From contig MGRM01000009.1 of assembly GCA_001798185.1 (NCBI GenBank), positions 85,745-149,744 on the forward strand: a stretch of 64,000 bases of DNA. Reading direction: 5' to 3'. The translations under genes were made by a program, and so were the position numbers. Under the pieces are notes generated by a model, which saw only the letters and a program-made list of their open reading frames with translations, searched no databases and was not told where the DNA came from. Positions 4,933 to 63,010 of the stretch are shown here, piece by piece; position 1 is the stretch's first letter; every line of letters starts with the position of its first letter. The stretch is from Deltaproteobacteria bacterium RIFCSPHIGHO2_02_FULL_44_16 (GTDB lineage: Bacteria; UBA10199; 2-02-FULL-44-16).

Positions 4933-5003
4933 GTCATTCCTGCGAAAGCAGGAATCCAGCCATTTATAAGCTTTTCTGGATCCCCGCCTACGCGAGGATG
5001 ACA
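4933..5003. repeat. Hairpin-pair palindromic repeat element (family 1), copy A
   Basis: gtcattcctgcgaaagcaggaatc…ggatccccgcctacgcgaggatgaca. The left arm forms an 8 bp stem with a GAAA loop; the right arm is degenerate. Confidence 0.6.
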
Positions 5004-5028
5004 TACTAAAAAAAATAAAAATATGACT

Positions 5029-5180
5029 AGGGCGTGTCCTCATTTGGTAGAATGTCATTCCCGCGAAAGCGGGAATCTCCAGTGTTTGAAGGAGATCCCC
5101 GCTTAAAGCATGCGGGGATGACAAATCATCGAGATTCCTTTTTGTTTCAAATAGTTACGCCTCAAATGAGGACACGCCCT
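5029..5180. mobile_element. ~152 bp element bounded by perfect 18 bp terminal inverted repeats (AGGGCGTGTCCTCATTTG … CAAATGAGGACACGCCCT) enclosing a family-1 hairpin-pair repeat
   Basis: Perfect 18 bp inverted repeats at ~5029-5046 and ~5163-5180 flank copy B (5054-5123). MITE-like nested structure. Confidence 0.35.
5054..5123. repeat. Hairpin-pair palindromic repeat element (family 1), copy B
   Basis: gtcattcccgcgaaagcgggaatctcc…gatccccgcttaaagcatgcggggatgaca. Both arms form perfect 8 bp hairpins. Confidence 0.65.
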
Positions 5181-6434
5181 AAACCTTCTCCGACAAATCT
5201 CACACACGCTTTTGTTCAACTCTTTGGGCTCAACGACTATGACACGAATGGTCGTTATGAACAAACATTCGCTCGAGCCGTGCAAGAAACGGGAGAAGTT
5301 CCATCTGCACTTTATCGTGATCTGGATGTCATCGATGGTAAGGAAGGAAATGGTTTTACCGAAAATGACGTTAAAACTTTTATGCAAAAATTCGGATTAG
5401 ATGCTCTTCAAAAAAAATATTATCCTTTTTACTCATTTCAATATCGAGAGCGATGTCAATGTATCCACATAACAGCTTTTGAGAACACTTTAGAGGGAAA
5501 TGTCCCCTTCGACGATAAGCACGTAGCAAAGACACTTCGCCGAATCGGGCTAGAGCAGAACGAGCTCAAGTCTCTGAATGTCCTTATTCCGGCCGTCTCA
5601 TATCAACCAGATAAACCACAACTGATTGCTATCGAGGATGTACATGGCAACCCCAAACACGGCGCTCTCATTTATAATCTCGCTTCACGTTTTGCTGAAA
5701 AACGGCGCCAGTTAGTTATACTCTTTGAAGAAGCAAGAGGACCCATTCGTTATGATGTCCGAGAGGCTCGCAAAGATTGGGACATCATCCAATATATTAT
5801 TTTAAATACATGGTACAAGGATCCGAATAGAGTTCCAAATGGCGAGACAACTGAAGGGCGAGCTATTCGGATTGCTATTAGAGCTCGCATGCAAGCTCGT
5901 GACATAAGTCAAACGACGATTAAATCGCTCACCGTTGAACAATTAAAAGATTTTTTTATTGCACATCCCGAATTCAAGACAATGATTCTCGCAATCTCAC
6001 CTAGTCTTGTTTTGTTCTGCGACTATGGCAATCAACTGCTCATCGCAAATAGCGAATCGGAAATACCTCTCAATTTCAAAGTTCCTTCAGAGAAAGGAGA
6101 CCATCGCACACCCGACATGCCTGAAATGAATACTCTGCTCCAGGCTAAAGACGCCACCTTTCGTGACCCTGCAGTTAAACAGAACCCCGTACTTGCGAGC
6201 AAACTCGTGCTGAGGGATCCCCTACTCACCCTCGTAAAAGAGGTAGACAGAGCATCTCAGGAAAGAACTAGAAGATGGGCCACCAATGTTCTAAGTTTAG
6301 CTCAAGACGAAGCTTCCTGTGGAAAGAGCAGTGAATGCATTGTTATCCTTTTCGGAGGAGCGAGTCACTTTCCTCTCCTGAAGGACGAATTAGACGGAAA
6401 AATCTCACTTATGTTTTTGCGACCTGCGAACTAA
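5166..6434 (+). CDS. Hypothetical protein. Start uncertain: the ORF track start at 5034 lies inside the repeat elements.
   Basis: Long ORF with no recognisable catalytic motifs. Its N-terminal ~44 codons in the track are translated repeat sequence. Convergent 4 bp overlap with the hemW-like gene. Confidence 0.35.
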   Translation: MRTRPKPSPTNLTHAFVQLFGLNDYDTNGRYEQTFARAVQETGEVPSALYRDLDVIDGKEGNGFTENDVKTFMQKFGLDALQKKYYPFYSFQYRERCQCIHITAFENTLEGNVPFDDKHVAKTLRRIGLEQNELKSLNVLIPAVSYQPDKPQLIAIEDVHGNPKHGALIYNLASRFAEKRRQLVILFEEARGPIRYDVREARKDWDIIQYIILNTWYKDPNRVPNGETTEGRAIRIAIRARMQARDISQTTIKSLTVEQLKDFFIAHPEFKTMILAISPSLVLFCDYGNQLLIANSESEIPLNFKVPSEKGDHRTPDMPEMNTLLQAKDATFRDPAVKQNPVLASKLVLRDPLLTLVKEVDRASQERTRRWATNVLSLAQDEASCGKSSECIVILFGGASHFPLLKDELDGKISLMFLRPAN

Positions 6435-7753
6435 AGAAAATGTCGAAAGACTTCGTTCGAGAGTTCAATGCCTAAAAAAGTTAACGTAAAAGAATTCTCA
6501 TGTCGAAGAAGAAGTTTTTGTTGTTCAAGTTTTTTTGTCAGTCCCGGATAAACAGATTCGAGTGATACACCAAATCGTTTCTCAAACTCAGATAGTGAAA
6601 TTCCCTCTCGCGTTCGTAGTCCCAAAAAACAAAACTCAGCCATTGCAGTTTTGTGATCAATGACATCGACATCTTTTGGTTCAAAGTCTCCTTCAAGATA
6701 ACGGTGGACGTTACGAGTGGTTGTAAATCGCTCCGCGATGCGCCTGTCTGCTTGACCTTTGTGCGCGCGGTCCAGTTGGTCCGTGCTGACAAAGGTCTGC
6801 ACAGCGGCGCATGGAGATGAAAGAAACGATACAGCACCGCTTCCAAGTCCAAGATATTCTCCATAGCGCCAATAATTCAGATTGTGTCGCGATTCAAAAC
6901 TTGGACGCGCAAAATTCGAGATCTCATATCGATGCAATCCTGCTTTGTCTAAAAGTTGATGAACGAGACGAAATTGCTCAAGAGATGTTTCATCATCAAG
7001 TTTTGGTGGAAACATCTTTGTCATTCCCGCGGAAGCGGGAATCTCTTGACTGTCATGAGATCCCTGCCTTCGCAGGGATGACAAGTCTCTATATCTTTTC
7101 TCCAGCAGCGTTCCTGGTTCGAATGTCAATTGATACGCAGAAATATGATCCGGCTCAAACGAAAGCGCTCGTCTGATATCATCTTCCACTTCTTTCGTTG
7201 TTTGTCCTGGAATGGAGTAGATCAGATCGCAACTGAGATTTTGAAAACCGGCTTCTCTCGCATCGATAAGCACATGCTGAACATCATCAGCTGTGTGATC
7301 GCGATCGAGAAAGGTGAGATATTTTGGATTGAAAGATTGAATACCAATCGATAATCGATTCACTCCCGCTTTTTGCACAGACTTTAACCAATCGATGGCG
7401 CTGGTCCGCTGCGAAGTTTCGTCAGCACGGACCGACTGGACCGCGCCACCCATTGGATTCATCTCTGATGTAATTTCAATATCAGCCGAAAACGAAAATA
7501 TTTTGTGCAGTTCATTCAAAACATTTTCAAAAAATGAAGAATCCATGAGCGATGGTGTTCCACCACCAAAAAAGACTGCGTCTACTTTTCTTCCTTGAAG
7601 CGAATACAACGGAACCAAAGAGTGCAACTGCTTTATAACCGCTTGGGTATAGGCATGATGCGGAATCTCATCGCGTTTCGTCGGCAGCGAATGAAAATCA
7701 CAGTATCCGCACTTCACAATGCAATAAGGGATATGGATGTAGATGGTGAACAC
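6431..7753 (-). CDS. hemW: Radical SAM protein, HemW/HemN-like (heme chaperone / oxygen-independent coproporphyrinogen III oxidase-like)
   Basis: N-terminal 'YIHIPYCIVKCGYCDF' CxxxCxxC radical-SAM motif and HemN-like C-terminal region. Contains an in-frame family-1 repeat (translated …EIPASAGMT…). Confidence 0.7.
   Translation of the reverse strand: MFTIYIHIPYCIVKCGYCDFHSLPTKRDEIPHHAYTQAVIKQLHSLVPLYSLQGRKVDAVFFGGGTPSLMDSSFFENVLNELHKIFSFSADIEITSEMNPMGGAVQSVRADETSQRTSAIDWLKSVQKAGVNRLSIGIQSFNPKYLTFLDRDHTADDVQHVLIDAREAGFQNLSCDLIYSIPGQTTKEVEDDIRRALSFEPDHISAYQLTFEPGTLLEKRYRDLSSLRRQGSHDSQEIPASAGMTKMFPPKLDDETSLEQFRLVHQLLDKAGLHRYEISNFARPSFESRHNLNYWRYGEYLGLGSGAVSFLSSPCAAVQTFVSTDQLDRAHKGQADRRIAERFTTTRNVHRYLEGDFEPKDVDVIDHKTAMAEFCFLGLRTREGISLSEFEKRFGVSLESVYPGLTKKLEQQKLLLRHENSFTLTFLGIELSNEVFRHFL
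7020..7083. repeat. Hairpin-pair palindromic repeat element (family 1), copy C, embedded in frame inside the hemW-like coding sequence
   Basis: gtcattcccgcggaagcgggaatctcttgactgtcatgagatccctgccttcgcagggatgaca lies within the continuous 440 aa ORF. Confidence 0.6.
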
Positions 7754-7807
7754 CGACGACCAATAAGTGTCGGATACTTTCTGGTCAATAACCTAATTCA
7801 TGTCAGA

Positions 7808-7828
7808 AACTGTCGAAATATGACAGTT
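7808..7828. promoter_or_regulatory. Inverted repeat AACTGTC-N7-GACAGTT, candidate AbiEi operator (site 1)
   Basis: aactgtcgaaatatgacagtt in the promoter region upstream of abiEi. A second copy lies ~71 bp downstream. Confidence 0.4.
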
Positions 7829-7878
7829 TTTAACATATATCTTGATTGTTTCAATAAAATTCTGTAATTTATGCTAAC

Positions 7879-10032: not shown

Positions 10033-10090
10033 AGCATCAATGATAAACCTCAGACCAATAAGTGTCTGACACTTATTGGTCAAAATTGGA

Positions 10091-17537: not shown

Positions 17538-17945
17538 TTATTTCTCTAAAAATAAAGAAATTGTTTTGTAGAGTTTTTCGGCTGTCGCGAAAGCTTGTGC
17601 AGCATCGGTTTTATTGGGGAGACGATGAGGAAAACTTCCCGGAATCCCGTCGGGATATCGAGTTGGAGCGTAGTAAAGATTGAGCACCATCAGCGGTTCC
17701 TCAAAAACTTGGAGTATTTCTTCATTCACAGGAAGACATATTCGAAACAGTTCATTGAGATCATGTATTTTTTTAAACGAAATAGCGTGAAAATGAAGAA
17801 AGGCTTTCAATAATTTTTCAGCACATTGTTGAGCATGAAAACAGGCTTGTGAATAAATTCCTTCTTTGGAAAGAACATGCGCTGCTTGCAAATCCTCTCC
17901 TGCAAAGACTAGCCATTCAAGCGCCAGATCACGCTGCTTTGTCAT
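17538..17945 (-). CDS. HEPN domain protein (toxin partner of the HEPN/MNT module)
   Basis: HEPN-like helical protein (PF05168-type, '…AHVLSKEGIYSQACFHAQQCAEKLLKA…'). Overlaps the upstream MNT gene by 17 nt. Confidence 0.55.
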   Translation of the reverse strand: MTKQRDLALEWLVFAGEDLQAAHVLSKEGIYSQACFHAQQCAEKLLKAFLHFHAISFKKIHDLNELFRICLPVNEEILQVFEEPLMVLNLYYAPTRYPDGIPGSFPHRLPNKTDAAQAFATAEKLYKTISLFLEK

Positions 17946-18444
17946 AGAGCACTTTTCCTTTTCCCTTTATCTCTTCCGTAAAAAAAGGCCGTTCACTTTT
18001 CTCAGCATCAGCCCATTCCTTTGGCGTATAGACAAAAAAATCACACGCAAGCTTCGGACGAATGAGCTTCACCACTTCTTTTTGTCGATCCCAAAATCGT
18101 TTCTTCGTCTGCTTGATGATGACTAAATCGATGTCACTGCTTTCGTGAACTTTTCCCGCGGCAAGCGAGCCAAAAAGAATAATTTTTTCTGGCTGATATT
18201 CAGCAGCAAGTTTCGTGACCATACGCAAAAGCTCCCCCGTCAACTCACGCTCACGGATTGAAACCGTATCAAGCGCACGTTGAGTGAGCTTCTCAAACAC
18301 GTCGCAGCCAACAAGAACTAAGGTGGGTTTCCCATGTTGCGTTAAGATCACCGGTTCTTTTGCTTCCAGCACGCGCTCAATGAGCTTTCCCGGTTCCCGC
18401 TGCATTTCCGTAGCGGTGGCTAAATGTTCTGATTTGAGTTGCAT
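17929..18444 (-). CDS. Minimal nucleotidyltransferase (MNT) with an N-terminal Phd/YefM-like antitoxin domain
   Basis: 'ILFGSLAAGKVHESSDIDLVII' (GS…SDIDL) MNT motif. The N-terminal ~60 aa ('…PVILTQHGKPTLVLVGCDVFEKL') resembles Phd/YefM. Confidence 0.55.
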   Translation of the reverse strand: MQLKSEHLATATEMQREPGKLIERVLEAKEPVILTQHGKPTLVLVGCDVFEKLTQRALDTVSIRERELTGELLRMVTKLAAEYQPEKIILFGSLAAGKVHESSDIDLVIIKQTKKRFWDRQKEVVKLIRPKLACDFFVYTPKEWADAEKSERPFFTEEIKGKGKVLYDKAA

Positions 18445-18721: not shown

Positions 18722-21466
18722 ATGGCTATGACCATCTCTCTTCATCCCACAAATGTCGTTTATATTGAGCAGCTTCTCCAACAGTATCGGGACAATCCTT
18801 CTTCTCTTGAGCCAACATGGCGCGCTTTTTTTGATGGGATTGAATTTGCGCGCGAAAATGGAAAGGATCTCGGAGACAAACTTCTTTTTGAGTTCAATGT
18901 GTTTCAACTCATTCAGGCGTACCGAGAAATGGGATTTCTCATTGCCGATGTTAATCCACTCGACCGCACCCCAAAGTCTCATCCTCTTTTGACATTGGAA
19001 CAATATCATCTCTCTCCCTTCGATCTCGATCGTCCCTGTGACGCAGGAAAACTTTTAGGTTTAGAAGCAGCCACCCTGGGCGATATTGTGGCACATTTAC
19101 GAACCTCCTATTGCGGGCCGGCCACTGTAGAATTTAGTCATATTGGAGATCCAGAACGTCGACTCTGGATTCAACAGCGCATCGAATCACATGAGCTTCT
19201 TCAATCTACTGAAGCAACAACGAAAAAAAATATTCTTCATCTTCTGGTTCAGTCTGAAACATTTGACATGACGCTTCACAAACGTTTCGTGGGACAAAAA
19301 CGTTTTTCCGGTGAAGGAAACGACGCCATGATTCCGATGTTGGCTGATCTTATCGAACAATCAGCACAGACACATACAGATGAAATCATTTTTGGCATGG
19401 CGCATCGAGGACGGCTCTCATTTTTAACCAATGTTCTCAAAAAAGATCTCAAAACTCTTTTTGCTGAATTCTTGGGAAATCTCGAAACAAATACAACTCC
19501 AGGCGATGGCGATGTGAAATATCATTTAGGTTTTTCAGGAGAAATCACAACTTCTTCTGGGAAGGAAGTTCACCTTTCACTTGTTCCAAACCCCAGTCAC
19601 CTCGAAGCCATTAATGCTGTGGTCATGGGCATGGTCCGTGCAAAACAGCAATGCAAAGATGACAGCACACGGATGAAAACACTCGCGGTGTTGTTGCATG
19701 GAGATGCTTCCTTTGCAGGTCAAGGAAATGTCTATGAAACCCTGAACATGTCGGGCTTACGCGGCTATACGATTGGTGGCACCATTCACGTGATCATCAA
19801 TAATCAAATTGGTTTTACCACAAACCCGAAAGATGCTCGATCAACTCCGAATACGACTGATATTGCCAAAATGCTTCAGACTCCCATCTTCCGGGTCAAT
19901 GCGGACGAGCCGGAAATGGCAGTACGATGCATGCGGCTTGCACTCGAATATCGCAACCTTTTTCAGGATGATGTTTTTATCGATCTCATGGGCTACCGTC
20001 GCTATGGACACAATGAAGGAGATGAACCCTCTTTTACCCAACCTCTTCTCTCTGAAAAAATTAAACATCACCCTCGTGTGGCTGAAATCTATACCGCTCG
20101 ACTTCTCGAAGAGGGAATCATCACCCAAGAAGAGGCGCAAGCCTTTCGTGAAAAACTTCAGACTTCCTATGAAACATTGATTGAAGAAGCAAAAAAAGCA
20201 AAAATTCCTCGCACCATGAGTGCGTTTGAAAAAACATGGCACGATTTTTCTCCTGTTCCTCAAACAGAAACTTTTTTTCAAACCATCGACACCGCAGTTG
20301 CCGAAAAAATTCTTCAGAAGATGGGAGATGAACTTTCAACCTCTCCAGAAAATTTTCAACCTCATCCAAAACTGATCCGTTTTTTTGAGGATCGAAAAGA
20401 GATGATCGACGGAAAACGCGGAATTGACTGGAGTTTAGGAGAAGCTTTGGCTTTTGGCTCTCTTCTTTGTGACAATTTCTCGATACGATTGTCGGGCCAA
20501 GATGTGGAACGAGGAACATTTTCGCATCGGCACTCTGTGCTTTATGACATCACCAATAATGAACGATATATTCCTCTCAATCATCTCTCTGAAAGAAAAA
20601 AAGATTATGAAGTGGTGAATAGTTTGCTTTCAGAATTTGCTGCCATGGGTTTTGAATTTGGTCAAAGTCTTGCTGATCCTTACAAACTCACCCTTTGGGA
20701 AGCACAGTTCGGTGATTTCTTTAATGGCGCCCAAGTGATCGTCGATCAATTCTTGGTAAGTTCAGCCATTAAGTGGCAACGCTCGAGTGGACTCGTTCTC
20801 CTGCTCCCTCATGGCTACGAAGGGATGGGGCCGGAGCATTCATCGGCACGACTGGAACGATTTTTACAGGCATGTGCGCAACAGAATATTCAAGTCTGCA
20901 ATGTCAGTACACCTGCACAATACTTTCATCTGTTGCGTCGTCAAATGCTTCGATCCTTTCGTCTTCCCCTTGTCATCATGTCGCCGAAAAGCCTTCTTCG
21001 ACATCCACGTGCAACTTCATCGATGGCTGAACTTACCACCGGAACCTTTTGCGAAATACTCGACGAAACGATGCTCAAGTCATCAAAAGAGATGAAACGT
21101 CTCATTCTTTGCAGCGGTAAAATTTATTACGAACTCTTGGCAGAGCGCGAAGCACAAAAAATAATGAATGTTCCGCTCATTCGTATTGAACAATTTTATC
21201 CTTTTCATGCGAAATATTTACAAACGATTTTTCAACGATATCCAAAAATAAAAGAAATCGTCTGGTGTCAGGAAGAAGCGCAAAACATGGGAGGTTGGCA
21301 TTTCATGAAAAATCAGCTTGTGCCACTTCTTGACCAGAAGGTGAAGCTTCAGTATGTCGGTCGTCCACCGCAAGCAAGTGTTTCGGGTGGTTATCTGCAT
21401 GTTCACGAAGCAGAACAAAAACGAATCGTCACCACCGCATTCAGCGATCTTGAAGGAGCACTATGA
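18722..21466 (+). CDS. sucA: 2-oxoglutarate dehydrogenase E1 component
   Basis: ~915 aa; the N-terminal region aligns with SucA ('…VYIEQLLQQYRDNPSSLEPTWRAFF'); transketolase-like ThDP domains. Confidence 0.85.
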   Translation: MAMTISLHPTNVVYIEQLLQQYRDNPSSLEPTWRAFFDGIEFARENGKDLGDKLLFEFNVFQLIQAYREMGFLIADVNPLDRTPKSHPLLTLEQYHLSPFDLDRPCDAGKLLGLEAATLGDIVAHLRTSYCGPATVEFSHIGDPERRLWIQQRIESHELLQSTEATTKKNILHLLVQSETFDMTLHKRFVGQKRFSGEGNDAMIPMLADLIEQSAQTHTDEIIFGMAHRGRLSFLTNVLKKDLKTLFAEFLGNLETNTTPGDGDVKYHLGFSGEITTSSGKEVHLSLVPNPSHLEAINAVVMGMVRAKQQCKDDSTRMKTLAVLLHGDASFAGQGNVYETLNMSGLRGYTIGGTIHVIINNQIGFTTNPKDARSTPNTTDIAKMLQTPIFRVNADEPEMAVRCMRLALEYRNLFQDDVFIDLMGYRRYGHNEGDEPSFTQPLLSEKIKHHPRVAEIYTARLLEEGIITQEEAQAFREKLQTSYETLIEEAKKAKIPRTMSAFEKTWHDFSPVPQTETFFQTIDTAVAEKILQKMGDELSTSPENFQPHPKLIRFFEDRKEMIDGKRGIDWSLGEALAFGSLLCDNFSIRLSGQDVERGTFSHRHSVLYDITNNERYIPLNHLSERKKDYEVVNSLLSEFAAMGFEFGQSLADPYKLTLWEAQFGDFFNGAQVIVDQFLVSSAIKWQRSSGLVLLLPHGYEGMGPEHSSARLERFLQACAQQNIQVCNVSTPAQYFHLLRRQMLRSFRLPLVIMSPKSLLRHPRATSSMAELTTGTFCEILDETMLKSSKEMKRLILCSGKIYYELLAEREAQKIMNVPLIRIEQFYPFHAKYLQTIFQRYPKIKEIVWCQEEAQNMGGWHFMKNQLVPLLDQKVKLQYVGRPPQASVSGGYLHVHEAEQKRIVTTAFSDLEGAL

Positions 21467-22647
21467 TTCATCCTGTGAAAGTACCAAGTGCTGGCGAATC
21501 CGTAACAGAAGCGTTCATTGGCGAATGGAAAGTCCATAATGGTGATGTCGTCAAAAAAGGCCAGGTGATTGTCGATCTTGAAAGTCAAAAAGCAACGTTT
21601 GAACTGGAAGCTGAATCAACAGGACGCATTGAGATCAAACGTCCAACTGAAGGCGATCGCGTTACAATTGGCGAAGTCATCGCAACGATTGATGATGCCA
21701 ATGGAAAATCTGTAGGGGCGCATGGCCATGCGCCTGAGGGCGAACGCCGTTCGCCCCTACAGCAACAAACATTCATGCAAACATCCCAGAAAACTTCTTC
21801 TTCGCAAGTTGGTCCTGCTGCACGACGACGTGGAGCTGAAGTTATAGAGGTACCGGGCTCTGCGCCCGAGGGCGAACGCCGTTCGCCCCTACCTGCAACC
21901 CCATCTGTACAACCGATAAAATATACGCTCGATACAGCACGCGGTGAGCGAGCTGAAAAAGCATCACGCATTCGAAAACAGATCGCGCAAAATTTAGTTA
22001 CAGCTCAACATACTGCTGCGATTCTCACGACCTTTAATGAAGTCGACATGTCAGCAATCACTGAACTTCGAAAAAAGTATAAAGATTCCATCCTCAAAAA
22101 ACATGGTGTGAAAATCGGAATGGTTGGACCTTTTGCGATGGCCGCAAAACGAGCTCTCCTCAAATATCCTCTCGTGAATTCAACTTTTACGGGCGAAGAA
22201 ATTATCAAGCGCGATTTCATCGATCTCTCGATTGCTGTCAGCACTGAAAAAGGACTTGTGGTTCCCGTCATAAAAGACCTGCAAGGTCTCGATTGGATCG
22301 GATTTGAAAAAAAATTAACTGAACTCGCCACCAAAGCACGAGATGGAAAACTCTCCATTCCAGAGATGACCGGCGGAACGTTTACGATTACGAACGGCGG
22401 CGTGTTTGGTTCTCTCTTAGCCACTCCACTTCTCAATATGCCGCAAAGTGCGATTTTAGGCCTTCATAAAATCGAAGATCGTCCCGTTGCTCTCGAAGGA
22501 AAAGTGGTGGTACGTCCGATGATGTATATTGCTCTTTCGTATGATCACCGTCTGTTAGATGGAAAAGATGCCATTGAATTTATCGTCTCGATAAAAGAAG
22601 CAATCGAAAATCCGAGTTTGATCATTGATGAATCAATATTGAAATGA
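21463..22647 (+). CDS. sucB: Dihydrolipoyllysine-residue succinyltransferase (2-oxoglutarate dehydrogenase E2)
   Basis: N-terminal lipoyl domain ('…DLESQKATFELEAESTG…'), linker, and C-terminal catalytic domain ('…SYDHRLLDGKDA…'). Confidence 0.85.
   Translation: MIHPVKVPSAGESVTEAFIGEWKVHNGDVVKKGQVIVDLESQKATFELEAESTGRIEIKRPTEGDRVTIGEVIATIDDANGKSVGAHGHAPEGERRSPLQQQTFMQTSQKTSSSQVGPAARRRGAEVIEVPGSAPEGERRSPLPATPSVQPIKYTLDTARGERAEKASRIRKQIAQNLVTAQHTAAILTTFNEVDMSAITELRKKYKDSILKKHGVKIGMVGPFAMAAKRALLKYPLVNSTFTGEEIIKRDFIDLSIAVSTEKGLVVPVIKDLQGLDWIGFEKKLTELATKARDGKLSIPEMTGGTFTITNGGVFGSLLATPLLNMPQSAILGLHKIEDRPVALEGKVVVRPMMYIALSYDHRLLDGKDAIEFIVSIKEAIENPSLIIDESILK
21730..21760. repeat. 31 bp palindromic repeat embedded in frame in the sucB linker (copy 1)
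   Basis: gcgcctgagggcgaacgccgttcgcccctac. The core GGCGAACG/CGTTCGCC is a perfect palindrome and translates to APEGERRSP. Confidence 0.55.
21863..21893. repeat. 31 bp palindromic repeat embedded in frame in the sucB linker (copy 2)
   Basis: gcgcccgagggcgaacgccgttcgcccctac, 133 bp downstream of copy 1. It also translates to APEGERRSP. Confidence 0.55.
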
Positions 22648-28465: not shown

Positions 28466-29556
28466 TGGTATCAAAAGGAAACAAAATGGAAGGACTCAAA
28501 CCTCAAGATTGGAAGGATTTACTAAGCGGGGTACGCAATCTTATTATTTCAGCCAGGCGAGCCGCCTCGCGAAGCATTGACACTCTTCAGGTGTTCACCA
28601 GCTTTGAGATCGGACGCCGTGTTGTCGAACATGAACAACTCGGAGAAAAGCGAGCCACTTATGGAAAACACGTGCTTACAAGACTTTCAGAGAGCCTAAC
28701 TCGTGAGTTCGGGCGCGGATTTTCAGAGGACAATCTCTCAAATATGCGGCGTTTTTATCTTGAATATCGGAAATGCTTGCCGAAGATTTCCGAGAAGCCT
28801 TCTCGGAAATCCATTTCCGCGCCAGGCCAGTCAATCTTATCGAATGTCAGCTCTGTTTTGAGCTGGTCCCATTACGTTTTTCTGATGACAATTTCAGACA
28901 AGGATGAACGACAATTCTATGAAATCGAATCTGCCCAAAACGGCTGGTCTCTGCCGGAACTCAAACGCCAGTTCAATTCCAGCCTTTATGAACGTCTGGC
29001 CTTAAGCCGGAACAAGAAAAAAGTCCTGGAGTTGGCCAAAAAGGGCCAATTGATAGAAACTTCCTCCGACCTGATCAAGCAACCCCTTGTGCTGGAATTT
29101 CTCGGCTTGGATGAAAAAAACAAATATGCGGAGTCGGATCTGGAATCCGCCATTATCGATAAACTGGAACATTTTCTGCTTGAGTTGGGCAAAGGCTTTC
29201 TTTTCGAAGCCCGGCAAAAACGTTTCACCTTTGACACCGATCACTTCTACGTTGACCTTGTATTTTATAATCGCCTTCTACGCTGCTACGTGCTCATCGA
29301 TCTCAAGATCGGCAAACTCACCCACCAAGATTTGGGACAGATGCAGATGTACGTCAATTATTTCGACCGCTTTGTAAAAAGGGATGGCGAACATCCCACC
29401 ATCGGCATCATTCTTTGCCGAACAAAAGGTAGTGCCTTGGTTGAAATCACGCTTCCTGAAAAAGCCAACATCTATGCGTCAGAATATAAACTCTACCTCC
29501 CATCGAAAAAAGATCTGAAAAGAAAACTTTTGGCATGGGCCGCAGAGGAAGAATAA
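28462..29556 (+). CDS. DUF1016 / YhcG-family PD-(D/E)xK nuclease-like protein (alternative start at 28486)
   Basis: YhcG-like N-terminal region plus a C-terminal '…FYVDLVFYNRLLRCYVLIDLKIGKL…' (D…[I]DLK) PD-(D/E)xK core. ATGA overlap with the MTase. Confidence 0.6.
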   Translation: MMVSKGNKMEGLKPQDWKDLLSGVRNLIISARRAASRSIDTLQVFTSFEIGRRVVEHEQLGEKRATYGKHVLTRLSESLTREFGRGFSEDNLSNMRRFYLEYRKCLPKISEKPSRKSISAPGQSILSNVSSVLSWSHYVFLMTISDKDERQFYEIESAQNGWSLPELKRQFNSSLYERLALSRNKKKVLELAKKGQLIETSSDLIKQPLVLEFLGLDEKNKYAESDLESAIIDKLEHFLLELGKGFLFEARQKRFTFDTDHFYVDLVFYNRLLRCYVLIDLKIGKLTHQDLGQMQMYVNYFDRFVKRDGEHPTIGIILCRTKGSALVEITLPEKANIYASEYKLYLPSKKDLKRKLLAWAAEEE

Positions 29557-29559
29557 TTC

Positions 29560-32138: not shown

Positions 32139-32276
32139 ATGTGACTAGAAATGCGGGCATGGAAATTATTTGAACAATTATTTTACTCCACCTAACGCGT
32201 CTTTCGGGGGGAGTCGTAATAGAAACCGCGCTCCGCCCCAACTCTTTATATTCACCTTCTTTACACCATTGTTAAA

Positions 32277-32711: not shown

Positions 32712-32862
32712 AGGCCAACCGCGCTAACGATTGGCCCTTAAATAGGGGACAGGAAAACCCGTCCACTTGTTCAATGCAAGTACACTTGTAGCGGTTCCCC
32801 TCCATTAAATCAAGAGCCCTTTCGTTTTCCTGTGGGTTCAATTTAAATAGGGAGGTTCTGAA

Positions 32863-37515: not shown

Positions 37516-37530
37516 TATTTGTTTGTACCG

Positions 37531-37566
37531 CTCATCCTGAGCCTGTCGAAGGATGAGCAGGATGAA
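37531..37566. repeat. Hairpin element in the feoA-feoB spacer
   Basis: gctcatcctgagcctgtcgaaggatgagcaggatga contains the perfect 8 bp stem gctcatcc/ggatgagc and is followed by a T-rich stretch. Confidence 0.35.
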
Positions 37567-37612
37567 GTTTTTCATGGTTCGACAGGCTCACCATGAGCGA
37601 ATTGTCATAAAG

Positions 37613-39827: not shown

Positions 39828-39974
39828 GACCAAACTGATTCACATTTTCTCTCGGGGCACGGACGCTTCGGTTGCGCTCCTCGCGTCCTCTCTTTCAGTC
39901 GGCGCGATTTATCACATCGCATCGACGCGCCTCCCTCAAAGGTCCCCTGCGAGAAAATCTTCACCAGTTTGGTC
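39828..39974 (+). mobile_element. MITE family 2 (~147 bp, terminal inverted repeats GACCAAACTG…CAGTTTGGTC), copy 1
   Basis: gaccaaactgattcacattttctctcggggcacggacgcttcgg…cccctgcgagaaaatcttcaccagtttggtc, immediately after the feoB stop. Confidence 0.7.
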
Positions 39975-39987
39975 TGTGGTTCATAAT

Positions 39988-40886: not shown

Positions 40887-42236
40887 GTGAAGAAAACCAA
40901 CTATCTCCTCACATCCTTTCTTTTTTTTTCGCTTCTTTTTTCTTCTTTTCCTGCAGCAGCAGCGAAAAACGGTGATGTCATCAACCTTTTCCCGACCAAT
41001 GATAGCGGGCTCTTTTTAAGTATCTATGACAGTCATACCTTTGGTTGGAGAAGTTTTTCCATCAGAACCGTTTGGAATTATGCACCACGTACGCTTGAAC
41101 TCAACAATACATCAGGTCGACGTGTACGAGGTGTGATCGATGATCTGCTCATCACGGATATTGGGGGGGCCATTGGGATTCTCCCCTGGTGGCATATCGG
41201 TTTTAATCAACCTGTCATCCTCTGGCAAACCTATCAAGATCCTTCTCTTCTCACGACAACTGCGCCAAAAGAGAATCGATTTGGGAAACTCGGTGATCCT
41301 CGTCTCGATATGAAATTTCGCTTGCTGGAAAATTATAGAACTCCTCTTGGAATTGCCATCATCCCCTTTGTGTATCTCCCTTATGGTGATGAAGAACATT
41401 TTTTAGGAAATGGAATGTGGTCTCCAGGCGCCACGTTAGCGCTCGACACTTCTTTGAGAAAGCGACTCTTTTTTGCTTTCAACATTACCTATCGAAATTA
41501 CGAAAAATTTCAGTATCGAACTGGCGCCAATTCTTTTATCGATGACACGCTCGGTTTCGGCCTGGGATTCCGTATTCAGATGAGCGAAAAACTCGCACTT
41601 TTAAGCGAACTTTGGGGTGAAAGCGTCATCAGTTCATTTGCAAAAAACAGTTTGCAGAACCCATCGGAATTTTTAGCAGGATTACGCTATGAACCTTCTC
41701 GCAAAAAATCACATCTGGGAATGACGCTCGCTGGCGGAAGATCCATCGTTTCAGGTCTTGGATCTCCTGAATACAGAGTCACCGCTGGCATTGATTATCT
41801 TCACTATGCCAGCGCAAAGAAAGAAAAACAAAAAGAGGCGGAGAAAGAGAAAAAGGAGAAGAGAAGAGAAGAGAAAAAAATAATAGAATTTAAGATTGAT
41901 CAGAAGATTCATTTTTCTTTCGCAAGCGCTTATATCAAAGAAGTCTGGAATCCGGTACTTGAAGAAGTGGCAACATTTCTTCTGAAACATCCTCGACTCA
42001 ATAAAATGATCGTCGAAGGATACACTGATGTACTGGGACCTCAAAAGTACAATCAGCGACTCTCTGAAGAACGAGCGAAAGCAGTGCGGGATGCTCTTAT
42101 TGCACGTGGGGTTGAACCAGATCGTCTTGAAGTTATTGGCTTTGGATCGAGCCAACCTCTCGCTGACAATGCGACCGCAGCAGGAAGAGCGCTCAATCGG
42201 CGTGTTGAATTTTCTCTTCCGGTGCAGCAACCATAG
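40887..42236 (+). CDS. OmpA-family outer membrane protein (N-terminal beta-barrel, K/E-rich linker, C-terminal OmpA domain)
   Basis: Signal peptide; C-terminal 'VEGYTDVLGPQKYNQRLSEERAKAV…NRRVEF' peptidoglycan-binding OmpA domain. GTG start. Confidence 0.7.
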   Translation: MKKTNYLLTSFLFFSLLFSSFPAAAAKNGDVINLFPTNDSGLFLSIYDSHTFGWRSFSIRTVWNYAPRTLELNNTSGRRVRGVIDDLLITDIGGAIGILPWWHIGFNQPVILWQTYQDPSLLTTTAPKENRFGKLGDPRLDMKFRLLENYRTPLGIAIIPFVYLPYGDEEHFLGNGMWSPGATLALDTSLRKRLFFAFNITYRNYEKFQYRTGANSFIDDTLGFGLGFRIQMSEKLALLSELWGESVISSFAKNSLQNPSEFLAGLRYEPSRKKSHLGMTLAGGRSIVSGLGSPEYRVTAGIDYLHYASAKKEKQKEAEKEKKEKRREEKKIIEFKIDQKIHFSFASAYIKEVWNPVLEEVATFLLKHPRLNKMIVEGYTDVLGPQKYNQRLSEERAKAVRDALIARGVEPDRLEVIGFGSSQPLADNATAAGRALNRRVEFSLPVQQP

Positions 42237-42299
42237 TCATCCCCGCGAAAGCAGGGATCTCATGTTTTGACTCGAGATTTCCGCTTTCGCGGGAATGAC
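42236..42299. repeat. Hairpin-pair palindromic repeat element (family 1), copy D, between the convergent OmpA and giant-protein genes
   Basis: gtcatccccgcgaaagcagggatctcatgttttgactcgagatttccgctttcgcgggaatgac followed by TTTTT. Probably acts as a bidirectional terminator. Confidence 0.6.
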
Positions 42300-48600: not shown

Positions 48601-48622
48601 GAAAGCTCCGCTAAAAACTATG

Positions 48623-48769
48623 GACCAAAGTGGTGAAGATTTTCTCGCAGGGGGCCTTTGACTGAGGCGCGTCGATGCAGTTTGATAAATCGCGCCGATG
48701 GAAACAGAAGACGCGAGGAGCGTAATCGAAGCGTCTGTACCCCGAGAGAAAATGTGAACCAGTTTGGTC
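48623..48769 (-). mobile_element. MITE family 2, copy 2 (reverse orientation), in the hisS-aspS spacer
   Basis: gaccaaagtggtgaagattttctcgcagggggc…ccccgagagaaaatgtgaaccagtttggtc is the reverse complement of the other copies. Confidence 0.7.
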
Positions 48770-54071: not shown

Positions 54072-54219
54072 AGCCAAACTGATTTCGCATTTTTTCTCGG
54101 GGTACAGCGGCTTCGGTTACGCTCCTCGCCGCTTCTGTTTCCGTCGGCGCGATTTATTATATTGCATCGACGCGCCTCCCTCAAATGCCCCCTGCGAAAA
54201 AATCCTTATCAGTCTGGCT
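54072..54219 (+). mobile_element. MITE family 2, copy 3 (degenerate termini), between the divergent prepilin peptidase and gatC genes
   Basis: agccaaactgatttcgcattttttctcggggtacagcggcttcggttacgctcctcgcc…ccccctgcgaaaaaatccttatcagtctggct. Confidence 0.6.
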
Positions 54220-54265
54220 TTATCATTGTCAGTTCTTTTCCCCTATGTTAGCCCCGCATGCATCT

Positions 54266-56032: not shown

Positions 56033-56179
56033 TTCCAAACTGGTTCACATTTTCTCTCGGGGTACAGACGCTTCGGTTACGCTCCTCGCGTCTTCTGTTT
56101 CCATCGGCGCGATTGATCGAATTGCATTGACGCGCCTCAGTCAAATGCCCCCTGCGAGAAAATCTTCACCAGTTTGGTC
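56033..56179 (+). mobile_element. MITE family 2, copy 4, in the gatA-gatB spacer
   Basis: ccaaactggttcacattttctctcggggtacagacgcttcggttacgctcctcgcgtcttc…ccccctgcgagaaaatcttcaccagtttggtc. Confidence 0.7.
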
Positions 56180-56215
56180 CATCGTCAATAGTCCATGGTC
56201 AATGGTCGATTGTTT

Positions 56216-61552: not shown

Positions 61553-62343
61553 CGAGATGAGGCAATATAAGAACGTAAATATTCTTTTGCTTCAGAAGTT
61601 GCTTCGGGAAGCAAGCGTCCTTTGGCAAGTGAAGCCGCAAGCGCTGATGAAAAACGGCACCCTGTTCCTCGCGGGTTTTTTCCTGGGATACGTGCTGCAG
61701 AAAAAGGGAGAAATTGTTGACCATCGTAGAGCATATCCACAGCATCACCTTGCAGATGTCCCCCCTTAATTAAAATCGCAAGAGCAGGAGCGTTCTGAGA
61801 ACGAAATTGCATGACATGATCATAGATCACTTTTGCTGCTGTACGCATTGTTTCAAGGTTTGCGACTTGCATTCCTGCAAGCGCAGAGGCTTCCGACAAA
61901 TTAGGCGTAATGACGGTTGCCAGGGGAAAAAGTTCTTGTCGATAAAAAGCAGTTGCCTTGCTTTCAAGAAGAGCAATGCCCGAAGAGGAATGTAATATCG
62001 GATCAAGAATCACATGCGATGTTTTCAACTGTTTTAAAAACCAACTGATCACACGAATATTCGCCTGCGTTGCCACCATTCCGATCTTTACCGCATCGGG
62101 AATCTGTTTCTTACATGCTGTAGAGAGCTGCTGACTTAAAATGTCCGCTGGAGTCGGATGAATCGCAATGACCGCTTGGTCTGTCTGTGCCGTGATTGCC
62201 GTGATCGCAGAAATACCGCGCACACCACAATCCGAAAGCGTTTTGAGATCTGCCTGCACTCCTGCTCCTCCAGAAGGATCACTTCCAGCAATCGCAAGAA
62301 CCACTTTTTTTTCAGGAGATGAGGTCATATGCATGAGCTTCAT
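61549..62343 (-). CDS. thiD: Hydroxymethylpyrimidine/phosphomethylpyrimidine kinase
   Basis: 'LAIAGSDPSGGAGVQADLKT' ribokinase-like ThiD motif; overlaps the uvrC start. Confidence 0.75.
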   Translation of the reverse strand: MKLMHMTSSPEKKVVLAIAGSDPSGGAGVQADLKTLSDCGVRGISAITAITAQTDQAVIAIHPTPADILSQQLSTACKKQIPDAVKIGMVATQANIRVISWFLKQLKTSHVILDPILHSSSGIALLESKATAFYRQELFPLATVITPNLSEASALAGMQVANLETMRTAAKVIYDHVMQFRSQNAPALAILIKGGHLQGDAVDMLYDGQQFLPFSAARIPGKNPRGTGCRFSSALAASLAKGRLLPEATSEAKEYLRSYIASSR

Positions 62344-62849
62344 TATTTAATATCGAGTTGTTTGATCTTTGCCCGCAACGTATTGCGATGCATTCCAAGA
62401 AGCCTTGCTGCCTTGAGATGATTCCCCTCTGCCCACTGAATCGCAAGTGAAATCATCGGTCGCTCAACATGTTCGACCACCGTGCGATGAATGCCGGTGA
62501 CTTCGTGCCGTCCAAGGCGTTCAAAAAAATGCGCAAGCTTATGAAAAACAGCGTCGCCAAGGGAAAGTTCATCAAAATGGGTATTGAAAAAAGCTTCATG
62601 ATCTTGACGATAGCGAGGAGGAAAATGAAACACATCGACTTCCGCTGTCGAAGAGAGAAGGGCAGCGGTAAAAATCAGACGACGAAGTTCATCCTCCTTG
62701 CTTTCATCAAAGGTGCGACGCTCAATCCATTCTTTTGCTTTTTCCGAAAAATATTTTTGTGGCAGAGAAAGAAGAAAACAACATTCGTGAAGATACATTT
62801 CGGCAGATGCAATTTTTTCTTTCACCTTTTCTGATCCGTTTGAGTTCAT
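62343..62849 (-). CDS. Fis-family helix-turn-helix DNA-binding protein
   Basis: C-terminal '…NHLKAARLLGMHRNTLRAKIKQL' Fis-type HTH. Confidence 0.45.
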   Translation of the reverse strand: MNSNGSEKVKEKIASAEMYLHECCFLLSLPQKYFSEKAKEWIERRTFDESKEDELRRLIFTAALLSSTAEVDVFHFPPRYRQDHEAFFNTHFDELSLGDAVFHKLAHFFERLGRHEVTGIHRTVVEHVERPMISLAIQWAEGNHLKAARLLGMHRNTLRAKIKQLDIK

Positions 62850-62940
62850 GCGAAAGCACTACTATCTTTTTGCTTCATGATTGCAAGCCTTGAATCATGA
62901 TGTTAGAATCCACCTCACAAATGTCTTTTGATCATTTGTT

Positions 62941-63010
62941 GTCATCCCTGCGAAGGCAGGGATCCAGTGTTTTTGATGCTTTCTGGATTCCCGCCTCCGC
63001 GGGAATGACA
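62941..63010. repeat. Hairpin-pair palindromic repeat element (family 1), copy E
   Basis: gtcatccctgcgaaggcagggatccagtgtttttgatgctttctggattcccgcctccgcgggaatgaca; the right arm is a perfect 8 bp hairpin. Confidence 0.6.

What the first reader, a model, noticed from the sequence alone, without database searches (positions are those of the whole stretch)
4933..63010. Hairpin-pair palindromic repeat family (GTCATTCCCGCGAAAGCGGGAATC…) scattered through the window, including a copy inside a coding sequence
At least five ~64-70 bp copies are present (4933, 5054, 7020, 42236, 62941). Each is built from two inverted arms, and each arm is itself an 8 bp stem with a GAAA-type loop. Single-arm relatives sit at 2618 and 37531. 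Most copies lie between convergent or tandem genes; 42236 is followed by a T-run and probably terminates transcription. Copy 7020-7083 lies inside the uninterrupted hemW-like ORF and contributes the residues EIPASAGMT, the same peptide the element yields in spurious ORFs elsewhere (EIPAFAGMT). The family behaves like REP/BIME-like or Rickettsia-RPE-like elements.
Basis: seen in the sequence. Interest (0 to 1): 0.6.

Follow-up and report, generated by a model that had tools for sequence, protein, structure and literature searches.

The report
Known palindromic repeats, one inside hemW
The repeats are real, but they belong to an already described family of small bacterial palindromic repeats (CGTC-1 REPs, the same kind as Neisseria dRS3 and Rickettsia RPE-6); one copy has been absorbed in frame into a floppy loop of the heme chaperone HemW, which is a new example of a known phenomenon.

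Summary
Five 63-70 bp elements lie at 4933-5002, 5054-5122, 7020-7082, 42236-42299 and 62941-63009. Each has two inverted arms of the form (T/A)GTC + 8-bp stem starting AT + 4-nt loop (one arm has 9 nt) + CCA/CTC tail. This matches, feature by feature, the CGTC-1 REP family of Di Nocera et al. 2013, arranged as head-to-head dimers. That family includes Neisseria dRS3 and Rickettsia conorii RPE-6, and the paper's supplement lists the same encoded peptides (VIPAKAGI, SFPRKRES, DSRFRGND, PASAGMT). Copy 7020-7082 is exactly 63 nt (21 codons). It sits in the only stop-free frame of that strand, inside an intact hemW. The segment is absent from 119 of 120 homologues and falls in a low-confidence loop of an otherwise confident AlphaFold model. 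hemW also carries two further single palindromic inserts, and sucB carries two GTAG-type REPs in its linker. The arm occurs in genomes labelled with about 20 phyla and in viral contigs, and its stem covaries strongly. No transposase was found in the window, so how the family spreads remains inferred (RAYT-like). Two details are wrong: the "single-arm relatives" are two-armed elements of other families, and three of the five copies lie between divergent genes. Verdict: new member of a known kind, moderate to low interest.

The parts
4933..5002 (.). CGTC-1 REP head-to-head dimer E1. Left arm TGTC-ATTCCTGC-GAAA-GCAGGAAT-CCA; right arm, reverse-complemented, TGTC-ATCCTCGC-GTAG-GCGGGGAT-CCA. Lies between the TM2-domain gene (minus strand) and an unknown ORF (plus strand), which are divergent.
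   Evidence: RNA fold -28.2/-37.9 kcal/mol, z -3.9/-6.9
5054..5122 (.). CGTC-1 REP dimer E2. The right arm has a 9-nt loop. The dimer is nested inside a 19-bp perfect inverted repeat (5028-5046 / 5163-5181).
   Evidence: sub-threshold Rfam match to FtrB, RF02748
7020..7082 (-). CGTC-1 REP dimer E3. It is 63 nt (21 codons) and is read in frame within hemW as SSLRRQGSHDSQEIPASAGMT (HemW residues about 225-245).
6431..7753 (-). hemW (radical-SAM heme chaperone), an intact 440-aa ORF that hosts E3 and two other palindromic inserts.
   Evidence: TIGR00539 287 bits against a cut-off of 205; alignment A1; AF2 pLDDT 87.6
42236..42299 (.). CGTC-1 REP dimer E4, between convergent genes. The first base of the element completes the TAG stop of the OmpA-family gene (40887-42236, plus strand). 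The last 13 codons and the stop of the 1476-aa Calx-beta/FG-GAP gene (42260-46690, minus strand) lie inside the element (..SFPRKRKSRVKT*). On the plus strand the right-arm hairpin is followed by GAC-TTTTT.
62941..63009 (.). CGTC-1 REP dimer E5, in the divergent region between the Fis-type HTH gene (62343-62849, minus strand) and a phosphodiesterase gene whose likely true start (MRQIFF..., a signal-peptide-like stretch) lies downstream of the element.
2618..2704 (.). Two-armed element of a related family: TGTCAT...ATGACA ends with longer, bulged stems. It starts 19 nt after the stop of the TIG-domain gene, between tandem genes.
   Evidence: -36 kcal/mol, z -5.5
7418..7446 (+). Single (C/T)GTC-tagged hairpin repeat inside hemW. 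It accounts for the private insert GGAVQSVRADETSQR (about aa 103-112).
   Evidence: (I7)
6765..6793 (-). Second copy of the same 29-nt repeat, in inverted orientation, inside hemW (insert ..VSTDQLDRA.., about aa 321-330).
   Evidence: (I7)
21713..21760 (-). GTAG-tagged REP (reverse complement GTAG-GGGCGAAC-GGC-GTTCGCCC...) inside the sucB inter-domain linker. Encodes ..HAPEGERRSPLQ.
   Evidence: (D16)
21845..21892 (-). Second GTAG-tagged REP in the sucB linker. Encodes ..SAPEGERRSPLP.
   Evidence: (D16)
37529..37599 (.). Palindromic element of another family, with 28-nt arms that are 86% complementary, just upstream of feoB.
   Evidence: (I18)

Best explanation
The five elements are head-to-head dimers of CGTC-1 REPs, a described superfamily of small, non-coding palindromic repeats found across many bacteria. 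Each arm is a self-contained hairpin: an 8-bp stem, a 4-nt loop, an unpaired (C/T)GTC tag at the 5' end and a short tail. In all five copies an 'ATT' arm is paired with an 'ATC' arm (a heterodimer). As a single strand, each dimer folds into one long, imperfect hairpin.

Shown here: the elements match the family definition; the arm stem is kept by compensatory changes across many genomes; the hemW copy is an in-frame 21-codon insertion in a disordered linker, and the enzyme fold and conserved residues around it are intact.

Inferred: the elements are non-autonomous and spread through single-stranded hairpin intermediates, processed by an enzyme encoded elsewhere in the genome. The most likely candidate is a single-copy REP-associated tyrosine transposase (RAYT), with the GTC tag playing the role that GTAG plays for E. 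coli TnpA-REP. Copies survive only where they do little harm, namely intergenic DNA, gene ends and flexible protein loops. A copy inside a gene must also have a length divisible by three and lie in the one stop-free frame. Once transcribed, the strong hairpins probably act as 3'-end barriers or terminators, as at E4.
For: Family definition from PMC3733652: tag CGTC (often TGTC), 8-bp stem starting AT, 4-nt loop, a tail close to CCA, mostly head-to-head dimers, and known intragenic copies encoding 20-30 aa. The window arms have a TGTC tag in 8 of 10 and AGTC in 2 of 10. All 10 have an AT-first 8-bp stem, 9 of 10 have a 4-nt loop, and tails are CCA (4) or CTC (6). The paper's supplement lists the same peptides.

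Across 166 arms in 120 loci retrieved with a pattern that allowed all four base combinations, stem positions 6/21 were T-A 140, C-G 23, T-G 2, C-A 1 (Fisher p 8e-25). Positions 9/18 were C-G 137, T-A 27, and 2 others (p 9e-29). The base before the tag was C 96, T 61. The tail was CCA in 128 of 166.

RNA folding energies are -28 to -45 kcal/mol, z -3.9 to -10.5.

For hemW: the insert is absent from 119 of 120 homologues. It is 63 nt, and only one of the three frames on that strand is open. In the AF2 model (mean pLDDT 87.6), the only segments below 50 are 107-109, 231-245 and 315-335, which are the three repeat-derived inserts. A different homologue, P0069, carries an independent HPRLRGND arm in another loop.

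For a RAYT link: Bertels & Rainey (bioRxiv 10.1101/2021.07.10.451892) tie the Neisseria REPIN ATTCCCGCGCAGGCGGGAATC to a Group 2 RAYT. That sequence matches the window arm at 19 of 21 positions. They also report REPIN decay where the RAYT is frameshifted.
Against: No RAYT or any other transposase lies in the 64-kb window. This rests on Pfam scans of all 55 remaining ORFs of a 56-ORF set (hemW was scanned against NCBIfam only), plus a phmmer search with E. coli RayT and an HUH/Y motif scan.

No gene recurs next to about 240 sampled copies from other genomes and viral contigs.

Di Nocera et al. concluded that CGTC REPs lack a dedicated transposase.

In the one Neisseria gonorrhoeae RAYT locus I examined, the gene is directly flanked by GTAG-type hairpins, and the CGTC-1 dimer lies about 140 bp further out. 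The RAYT link to CGTC-1 is therefore not clean.

No empty-site allele was found: two other metagenome contigs are 100% identical to the window, and the nearest relatives are only 54% identical. Insertion is therefore inferred from comparison, not observed. Termination at E4 has not been tested.
Confidence: 0.8

Rival explanations
1. The elements are classical miniature inverted-repeat transposable elements (MITEs). A DDE-type insertion-sequence transposase would move them by recognising the GTCAT...ATGAC ends as terminal inverted repeats.
For: The outer ends are inverted repeats (TGTCAT...ATGACA), and size and copy number are MITE-like.
Against: No target-site duplication flanks any of the five copies. 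Each arm is a complete hairpin whose own pairing is conserved better than left-right complementarity: 77 of 80 intra-arm pairs are Watson-Crick, against 2-7 differences per 24 nt between partner arms (my reading). Single arms are common in other genomes, where only 75 of 166 arms have a recognisable partner. No insertion-sequence transposase lies in the window.
Confidence: 0.07
2. The elements are not mobile. They are host regulatory hairpins (terminators, mRNA stabilisers or small RNAs) that arose and are maintained in place because the cell uses them.
For: The hairpins are strong. E4 matches a terminator pattern. There are sub-threshold Rfam matches to two sRNA families, WsnRNA46 (38.6 bits, E 8e-7) and FtrB (31.8 bits), whose consensus contains the same arm. 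Stem covariation is compatible with selection on structure.
Against: One copy lies inside a coding sequence and another overlaps a gene end. Three lie in divergent promoter regions, where a terminator makes little sense. Near-identical 24-mers occur in about 20 phylum-level lineages and in viral contigs, in unrelated contexts. Copy number and presence vary between related species according to PMC3733652. A role once inserted does not exclude mobility.
Confidence: 0.08
3. The 21 residues in HemW are native protein sequence, and the DNA similarity to the repeats is coincidental or secondary.
For: The ORF is intact, and the segment lies in a region whose length varies among homologues.
Against: The 63 nt match the intergenic copies arm for arm: for example, 26 of 26 complementary to 62939-62964, and 96% to 62986-63011 (I9 and I11). 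The segment is absent from all homologues except the identical sequence P0001. Its pLDDT is below 50. The same peptides are catalogued as REP-encoded in other species.
Confidence: 0.02

Closest known systems
CGTC-1 family of CGTC-tagged REPs (Di Nocera, De Gregorio & Rocco 2013, BMC Genomics 14:522)
   Same: Unpaired (C/T)GTC tag, 8-bp stem starting A-T/T-A, 4-nt loop, 3-nt tail (CCA/CTC), head-to-head dimers including heterodimers, location next to gene ends, occasional in-frame intragenic copies, and the same encoded peptides (VIPAKAGI, SFPRKRES, DSRFRGND, PAFAGMT, PASAGMT).
   Different: The host is an uncultured groundwater MAG labelled Deltaproteobacteria (RIFCSPHIGHO2_02_FULL_44_16), which is not among the species surveyed in the paper. 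Spacers are at the short end of the range (15-22 nt). All five dimers are heterodimers. hemW was not found as a host gene in the paper's supplementary files.
Rickettsia palindromic elements, specifically RPE-6 (equated with CGTC-1 in PMC3733652). The original description of in-frame RPEs by Ogata et al. 2000 is cited from my own knowledge.
   Same: Palindromic repeats inserted in frame into housekeeping proteins at positions tolerated by the fold. Several inserts can occur in one gene.
   Different: I did not align Rickettsia DNA here. The equivalence rests on the paper and on the shared peptides. RPE-1, the classic case, is a longer and unrelated element.
Neisseria dRS3 repeats / Neisseria REPIN (ATTCCCGCGCAGGCGGGAATC)
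   Same: The 8-bp stem (ATTCCCGC/GCGGGAAT) and the CGTC tag are identical; only two loop bases differ. A dimer of this type is seen in an N. gonorrhoeae chromosome.
   Different: In Neisseria the repeats are clustered in intergenic mosaic arrays and, from my own knowledge, serve as integration sites for filamentous prophages. Neither clustering nor prophage junctions are seen in this window.
REPIN-RAYT systems of E. coli and Pseudomonas (GTAG-tagged REP doublets mobilised by TnpA-REP/RAYT)
   Same: The architecture is two inverted REP hairpins forming a long hairpin. The elements are non-autonomous, moderately abundant and mostly extragenic.
   Different: The tag is GTC, not GTAG. No cognate RAYT has been shown for this family. 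GTAG-type REPs coexist in the same window (in the sucB linker).
Rfam sRNA families FtrB (RF02748, Francisella) and WsnRNA46 (RF02625, Wolbachia)
   Same: Their consensus sequences contain the same kind of tagged-hairpin dimer. FtrB contains GUCAUUCCCGCG-uAGG-CGGGAAUCUC.
   Different: The matches fall below the gathering scores (31.8 against 66, and 38.6 against 65.3). These families describe particular transcribed copies, not the repeat family as such.

Membership tests
CGTC-1 REP (Di Nocera et al. 2013) | Unpaired terminal tag CGTC (TGTC or CCTC allowed) 5' of the hairpin | tested here: met
   TGTC in 8 of 10 arms and AGTC in 2 of 10. In 166 arms from other genomes the base before GTC is C 96, T 61.
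CGTC-1 REP (Di Nocera et al. 2013) | 8-bp stem whose first two pairs are A-T and T-A | tested here: met
   All 10 arms. 77 of 80 pairs are Watson-Crick; the other 3 are G-T or C-A depending on the strand.
CGTC-1 REP (Di Nocera et al. 2013) | 4-nt loop | tested here: met
   9 of 10 arms. The E2 right arm has a 9-nt loop.
CGTC-1 REP (Di Nocera et al. 2013) | 3-nt unpaired tail, consensus CCA | tested here: met
   CCA in 4 arms (E1, E5) and CTC in 6 (E2-E4). CCA in 128 of 166 arms elsewhere, with CTC as a minor variant.
CGTC-1 REP (Di Nocera et al. 2013) | Mostly head-to-head dimers with a spacer of tens of bp | tested here: met
   5 of 5 are dimers with tags facing outward and 15-22 nt between the ATC ends. 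This is the short end of the published 20-100 bp range.
CGTC-1 REP (Di Nocera et al. 2013) | Encoded peptides of intragenic copies match those catalogued for the family | tested here: met
   Window readings are VIPAKAGIQ, SFPRKRES, DSRFRGND, IPAFAGMT and IPASAGMT. The supplement lists VIPAKAGI, SFPRKRES, DSRFRGND, WMPAFAGMT and ..PASAGMT.
CGTC-1 REP (Di Nocera et al. 2013) | Preferred location between convergent or unidirectional genes, close to 3' ends | tested here: inconclusive
   One of five is convergent (E4), three lie in divergent regions (E1, E2, E5) and one is intragenic (E3). Five copies are too few for a preference test.
REPIN-RAYT system | Two inverted REPs that fold into one hairpin | tested here: met
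   The minimum-free-energy structure of every dimer, on both strands, is a single long hairpin.
REPIN-RAYT system | A cognate single-copy RAYT gene in the same genome, flanked by the same REPs | not testable with these tools
   Only 64 kb of the genome is available. No RAYT lies within it.
REPIN-RAYT system | GTAG tetranucleotide as the cleavage tag (Group 2/3 RAYT REPs) | tested here: not met
   The tag is (T/C/A)GTC. GTAG-tagged REPs do exist elsewhere in the window (21713-21760, 21845-21892), but they belong to a different family.
MITE (DDE transposase-dependent) | Target-site duplication flanking the terminal inverted repeats | tested here: not met
   No direct repeat flanks any of the five copies. 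The flanking T...A only extends the palindrome.
Intrinsic terminator (copy 42236) | GC-rich hairpin followed directly by a U-run on the transcribed strand | tested here: inconclusive
   The pattern scan reports the right-arm hairpin followed by GAC-TTTTTGA on the plus strand. The U-run is short and offset by 3 nt, there is no U-run for the minus-strand gene, and no transcript data are available.

The most novel reading that the evidence does not exclude
The same 24-nt arm, with compensated stem variants, occurs in genomes labelled with about 20 phyla. These include Patescibacteria and one Nanoarchaeota MAG, and the arm also occurs in many viral contigs, far beyond the 5 phyla reported in 2013. 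No transposase is linked to any sampled copy. The data do not exclude that CGTC-1 REPs are spread by a mobilisation route that is still unidentified and horizontally transmissible (possibly carried by phages or gene-transfer agents), distinct from the vertically inherited, lineage-bound REPIN-RAYT partnerships.
Probability: 0.15. Interest if true: 0.6.

Novelty: new member of a known kind. Interest (0 to 1): 0.3.

Why it matters
The practical value is for annotation. These repeats create spurious ORFs and false N-terminal extensions; in this window that affects the ORFs starting at 5034, 37553 and 62894. They also add private loops to real proteins, such as HemW and SucB.

The window shows an uncultured groundwater lineage whose housekeeping genes are unusually rich in in-frame REP inserts: at least five in two genes within 64 kb. 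That resembles Rickettsia conorii and Opitutus terrae, and makes this lineage a natural data set for asking which protein sites tolerate such inserts.

The cross-phylum survey made on the way suggests the CGTC-1 family is far more widespread than published. It also underlines that its means of spread is still unsettled. None of this changes the established picture of REPs.

Tried and rejected
1. An idea from memory, that small GIY-YIG (COG2827) genes sit next to these repeats. Among 120 loci I found one such gene, not adjacent to a repeat, and one remnant. Rejected.

2. Unbiased neighbour enrichment around about 240 arms from genomes and viral contigs. No gene family recurred, apart from a set of related terminase-portal (GTA or prophage-like) loci that share one conserved copy. 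Genes enclosed between successive dimers are ordinary housekeeping genes.

3. A search for a RAYT in the window and in all fetched loci, using phmmer with E. coli RayT and an HUH...Y motif. Nothing was found.

4. A look at RAYT loci available in the plasmid collection. The Chloroflexota copy is flanked by GTAG REPs, and the Chromobacterium and Methylomonas copies show no tagged REPs of either kind beside the gene. The N. gonorrhoeae locus has GTAG hairpins directly flanking the gene and a CGTC-1 dimer about 140 bp upstream. This is ambiguous for the RAYT/CGTC-1 link.

5. A search for an empty hemW site. The metagenome scan found no relative above 54% identity, and two JGI contigs are 100% identical to the window. 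The exact insertion junction therefore could not be shown.

6. An exact-protein lookup of the 440-aa HemW found nothing, because the deposited gene call starts 12 codons later.

7. A search of 1.84 billion representative proteins with the 30-aa insert peptide gave 0 hits at E <= 0.001. The query is too short to be informative.

8. Rfam at gathering thresholds gave no family anywhere in the window.


Full report

Yes. The stated motif, allowing up to three mismatches, hits six times in the window, against none in 100 dinucleotide-preserving shuffles. An independent repeat finder recovers the five left arms and four of the five right arms as families D5 and D9; the fifth right arm (5099-5122) carries a 9-nt loop. 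A structure-only scan (GTC followed by an 8-bp hairpin) picks out exactly ten arms with 7-8 of 8 pairs and an AT-first stem. These form five dimers, and nothing else in the 64 kb stands above a shuffled background.

Read from the sequence, the copies are:
- E1: 4933-5002, 70 nt
- E2: 5054-5122, 69 nt
- E4: 42236-42299, 64 nt
- E5: 62941-63009, 69 nt

Each arm reads (T/A)GTC, then AT plus six bases, then a 4-nt loop (GAAA, GGAA, GAAG, GTAG or GGAG; one arm has 9 nt), then the complementary eight bases, then CCA or CTC. The second arm is the same unit in inverted orientation after 15-22 nt.

In all five copies one arm begins ATT... and the other ATC..., so all are heterodimers. Each arm's own stem is close to perfect: 77 of 80 pairs are Watson-Crick. 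Partner arms, by contrast, differ from each other at 2-7 of 24 positions.

As RNA, every dimer on either strand folds into one long hairpin of -28 to -45 kcal/mol, z = -3.9 to -10.5.

**2.

The "single-arm relative" at 2618 is a full two-armed element (2618-2704). It has the same TGTCAT...ATGACA ends but longer, bulged stems. The one at 37531 is a two-armed palindrome of another family (37529-37599, I18).

Gene context, from ORF calling and Pfam scans, is as follows:
- E4 lies between convergent genes.
- E1 and E2 lie between a TM2-domain gene on the minus strand and an unknown ORF on the plus strand. These are divergent.
- E5 lies between a Fis-type HTH gene (minus strand) and a phosphodiesterase gene (plus strand). 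The likely start of the latter (MRQIFF...) is downstream of the element, so this region is also divergent.
- E3 is inside hemW.

**3. The copy inside hemW**

ORF 6431-7753 (minus strand) is HemW: TIGR00539 scores 287 bits against a cut-off of 205, as one continuous match.

Aligned with 20 homologues, the protein has a private stretch, SSLRRQGSHDSQEIPASAGMT, between the radical-SAM core and the HemN_C domain. This is where its nearest relatives (53% identity) have a 6-8 residue linker. Among the 120 best homologues, only the identical sequence P0001 contains it.

The element is exactly 63 nt. On that strand, only the frame actually used lacks a stop codon.

An AlphaFold2 model built from the alignment is confident overall (mean pLDDT 87.6, pTM 0.87). 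It has only three segments below 50: residues 107-109, 231-245 and 315-335.
- The middle segment is E3.
- The other two coincide with two further private inserts. At the DNA level these are two copies of a 29-nt (C/T)GTC-tagged hairpin in inverted orientation, at 7418-7446 and 6765-6793 (I7, 48, 51).

So hemW carries three repeat-derived inserts, all in loops. The CxxxCxxC motif and all invariant residues are retained.

Another homologue, P0069, carries an independent HPRLRGND arm in the third loop. This shows that these loops accept such inserts repeatedly.

**4. What it is**

A literature search led to Di Nocera, De Gregorio and Rocco 2013 (PMC3733652). They sort REPs into GTAG-tagged and CGTC-tagged superfamilies. 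Their CGTC-1 family is defined by:
- an unpaired CGTC tag, often TGTC;
- an 8-bp stem beginning with A-T and T-A pairs;
- a 4-nt loop;
- a 3-nt tail close to CCA;
- mostly head-to-head dimers, in some species exclusively heterodimers.

They equate CGTC-1 with Neisseria dRS3 and with Rickettsia conorii RPE-6. They also document in-frame intragenic copies encoding 20-30 residues.

The window elements meet every structural criterion (see the membership table). The paper's supplementary list of REP-encoded peptides contains VIPAKAGI, SFPRKRES, DSRFRGND, WMPAFAGMT and ..PASAGMT. These are the same readings the window copies give in their six frames.

Rfam has no family at gathering threshold. Sub-threshold matches to FtrB (Francisella) and WsnRNA46 (Wolbachia) show that transcribed copies of such dimers have been catalogued as small RNAs. 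The FtrB consensus contains GUCAUUCCCGCG-uAGG-CGGGAAUCUC.

**5. Distribution and structural constraint**

I scanned one genome per species with a degenerate arm pattern that allowed all four base combinations at two stem pairs. The 80 listed loci carry labels from about 20 phylum-level groups:
- Bacteroidota
- four proteobacterial classes
- Desulfobacterota
- Nitrospirota
- Chloroflexota
- Planctomycetota
- Verrucomicrobiota
- Acidobacteriota
- Patescibacteria
- Vampirovibrionales
- Ignavibacteria
- Fibrobacter
- Zixibacteria
- Cloacimonas
- Poribacteria
- one Nanoarchaeota MAG
- and others

MAG binning errors cannot be excluded for individual cases.

The same scan of viral contigs also hit its limit. 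A dozen of those hits are related terminase-portal loci that share one conserved copy.

In the 166 genomic arms:
- the two variable stem pairs are almost always complementary: T-A 140, C-G 23, others 3 (p 8e-25); and C-G 137, T-A 27, others 2 (p 9e-29);
- the base before GTC is C (96) or T (61);
- the tail is CCA in 128.

So the hairpin of the single arm is the conserved unit, and the family is much more widespread than the five phyla reported in 2013.

**6. How it probably works**

Shown: the anatomy, the family membership, the conserved hairpin, and the tolerated in-frame insertion.

Inferred: the means of spread. By analogy with GTAG REPs, the elements are most likely non-autonomous. They would be copied through single-stranded hairpins by a single-copy RAYT encoded elsewhere.

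Bertels and Rainey (bioRxiv 10.1101/2021.07.10.451892) identify the Neisseria REPIN as ATTCCCGCGCAGGCGGGAATC. It matches the window arm at 19 of 21 positions. They tie it to a Group 2 RAYT and report decay of the repeats where the RAYT is frameshifted.

Against this:
- Di Nocera et al. found no transposase associated with CGTC REPs.
- The window has no RAYT.
- No gene recurs next to about 240 sampled copies.
- In the one N. gonorrhoeae RAYT locus I could fetch, the gene is directly flanked by GTAG-type hairpins, and the CGTC-1 dimer lies about 140 bp upstream.

I therefore rate the identity of the elements as near certain, and the RAYT mechanism at about even odds.

Local effects are also inferred. 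At E4:
- the first base of the element completes the TAG stop of the OmpA-family gene;
- the convergent 1476-residue gene ends 13 codons inside the element;
- the right-arm hairpin is followed by GAC-TTTTT, which a pattern scan flags as terminator-like.

**7. Rivals**

- A DDE-type MITE is unlikely. There are no target duplications, the arms are autonomous hairpins, single arms are common elsewhere, and no insertion sequence is present.
- A purely in-place regulatory hairpin does not explain the intragenic copy, the copies in divergent promoter regions, or the cross-phylum identity.
- Native HemW sequence is excluded by the DNA identity with intergenic copies (I9 and I11) and by the homologue comparison.

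**8. Source and novelty**

The SucB protein of the window is 100% identical to a protein named by NCBI as from "Deltaproteobacteria bacterium RIFCSPHIGHO2_02_FULL_44_16". Two JGI metagenome contigs are 100% identical to parts of the window.

The finding is a new host and a new host gene for a known repeat family, so I rate it as a new member of a known kind. The density of in-frame REP inserts is worth noting but is not new in kind: three in hemW, plus two GTAG-type REPs in the sucB linker, where the E3-binding domain is also missing.

Noticed in passing
window 21713-21760 and 21845-21892 (inside sucB, 21463-22647 +): Two copies (83% identical) of a 48-nt GTAG-tagged palindromic repeat lie in frame in the linker between the lipoyl and catalytic domains of the 2-oxoglutarate dehydrogenase E2 subunit. 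They encode ..APEGERRSPL.. twice. The E3-binding domain (PF02817), present in most homologues, is not detected in this protein or in its two closest relatives. Relative P0122 has other REP-like peptides in the same linker.
   Followed up: partly
window 6765-6793 and 7418-7446 (inside hemW): Two further private inserts of HemW are copies of one 29-nt (C/T)GTC-tagged hairpin, in inverted orientation 624 nt apart. The hairpin is stronger on one strand because of G-T pairs (-16.6 against -8.9 kcal/mol). No other copy occurs in the window.
   Followed up: partly
window 4720-4759 vs 6432-6471: The last 13 codons and the stop of hemW are duplicated (40 nt, 95% identical) 1.7 kb away, directly in front of the ribosome-binding site and start of the TM2-domain gene. 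The 1.7 kb in between holds REP dimers E1 and E2 and an unknown ORF of about 420-460 aa with no Pfam or NCBIfam match, convergent with hemW. It looks like an insertion that split a former hemW-TM2 operon.
   Followed up: partly
window 5028-5046 / 5163-5181: A perfect 19-bp inverted repeat (TAGGGCGTGTCCTCATTTG / CAAATGAGGACACGCCCTA) brackets REP dimer E2. PMC3733652 describes CGTC-1 dimers nested in larger palindromes in Halothiobacillus neapolitanus.
   Followed up: no
window 39830-39985, 48617-48767 (-), 54075-54230, 56035-56190: A repeat of about 150 nt (76-95% identical, with internal 35-nt inverted ends) lies in four intergenic spots: after feoB, between hisS and aspS, before gatC, and between gatA and gatB. 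It inflates the predicted N-termini of AspS and GatC. There is no Rfam match.
   Followed up: no
window 7758-7786 / 10053-10081: 29-nt inverted repeats (86% complementary; the second is itself a perfect 12-bp hairpin) bracket a 2.3-kb block just upstream of hemW. The block holds an AbiEii toxin gene and two unknown ORFs, and may be a mobile toxin-antitoxin cassette.
   Followed up: no
window 26480-33123: A cluster of defence or restriction-type genes: an N6/N4 DNA methylase, a YhcG-type PDDEXK nuclease, a ResIII/SNF2 helicase, a TnsA-like endonuclease domain and an HNH protein. A HEPN/nucleotidyltransferase pair lies at 17538-18444.
   Followed up: no
loci L176, L177, L210, L219, L225, L239, L252, L269 (viral contigs): About a dozen related viral contigs share a CGTC-1 arm at a conserved position, 25-30 bp after a terminase large-subunit gene and near a portal gene. 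This is the layout of gene-transfer-agent-like or prophage head modules.
   Followed up: partly
locus L298 (N. gonorrhoeae NZ_CP119142.1, filed as a 'plasmid' of 2.17 Mb): This record in the plasmid collection is evidently a whole chromosome. Its frameshifted RAYT is flanked by GTAG-GTCGGAT hairpins at 1876 (+), 1974 (-) and 2518 (-), with a dRS3/CGTC-1 dimer at 1760-1864.
   Followed up: partly
window 43976-44938: Three tandem copies of about 300-330 nt (62-79% identical) lie inside the 1476-aa surface-type protein. They correspond to its repeated Calx-beta domains.
   Followed up: no
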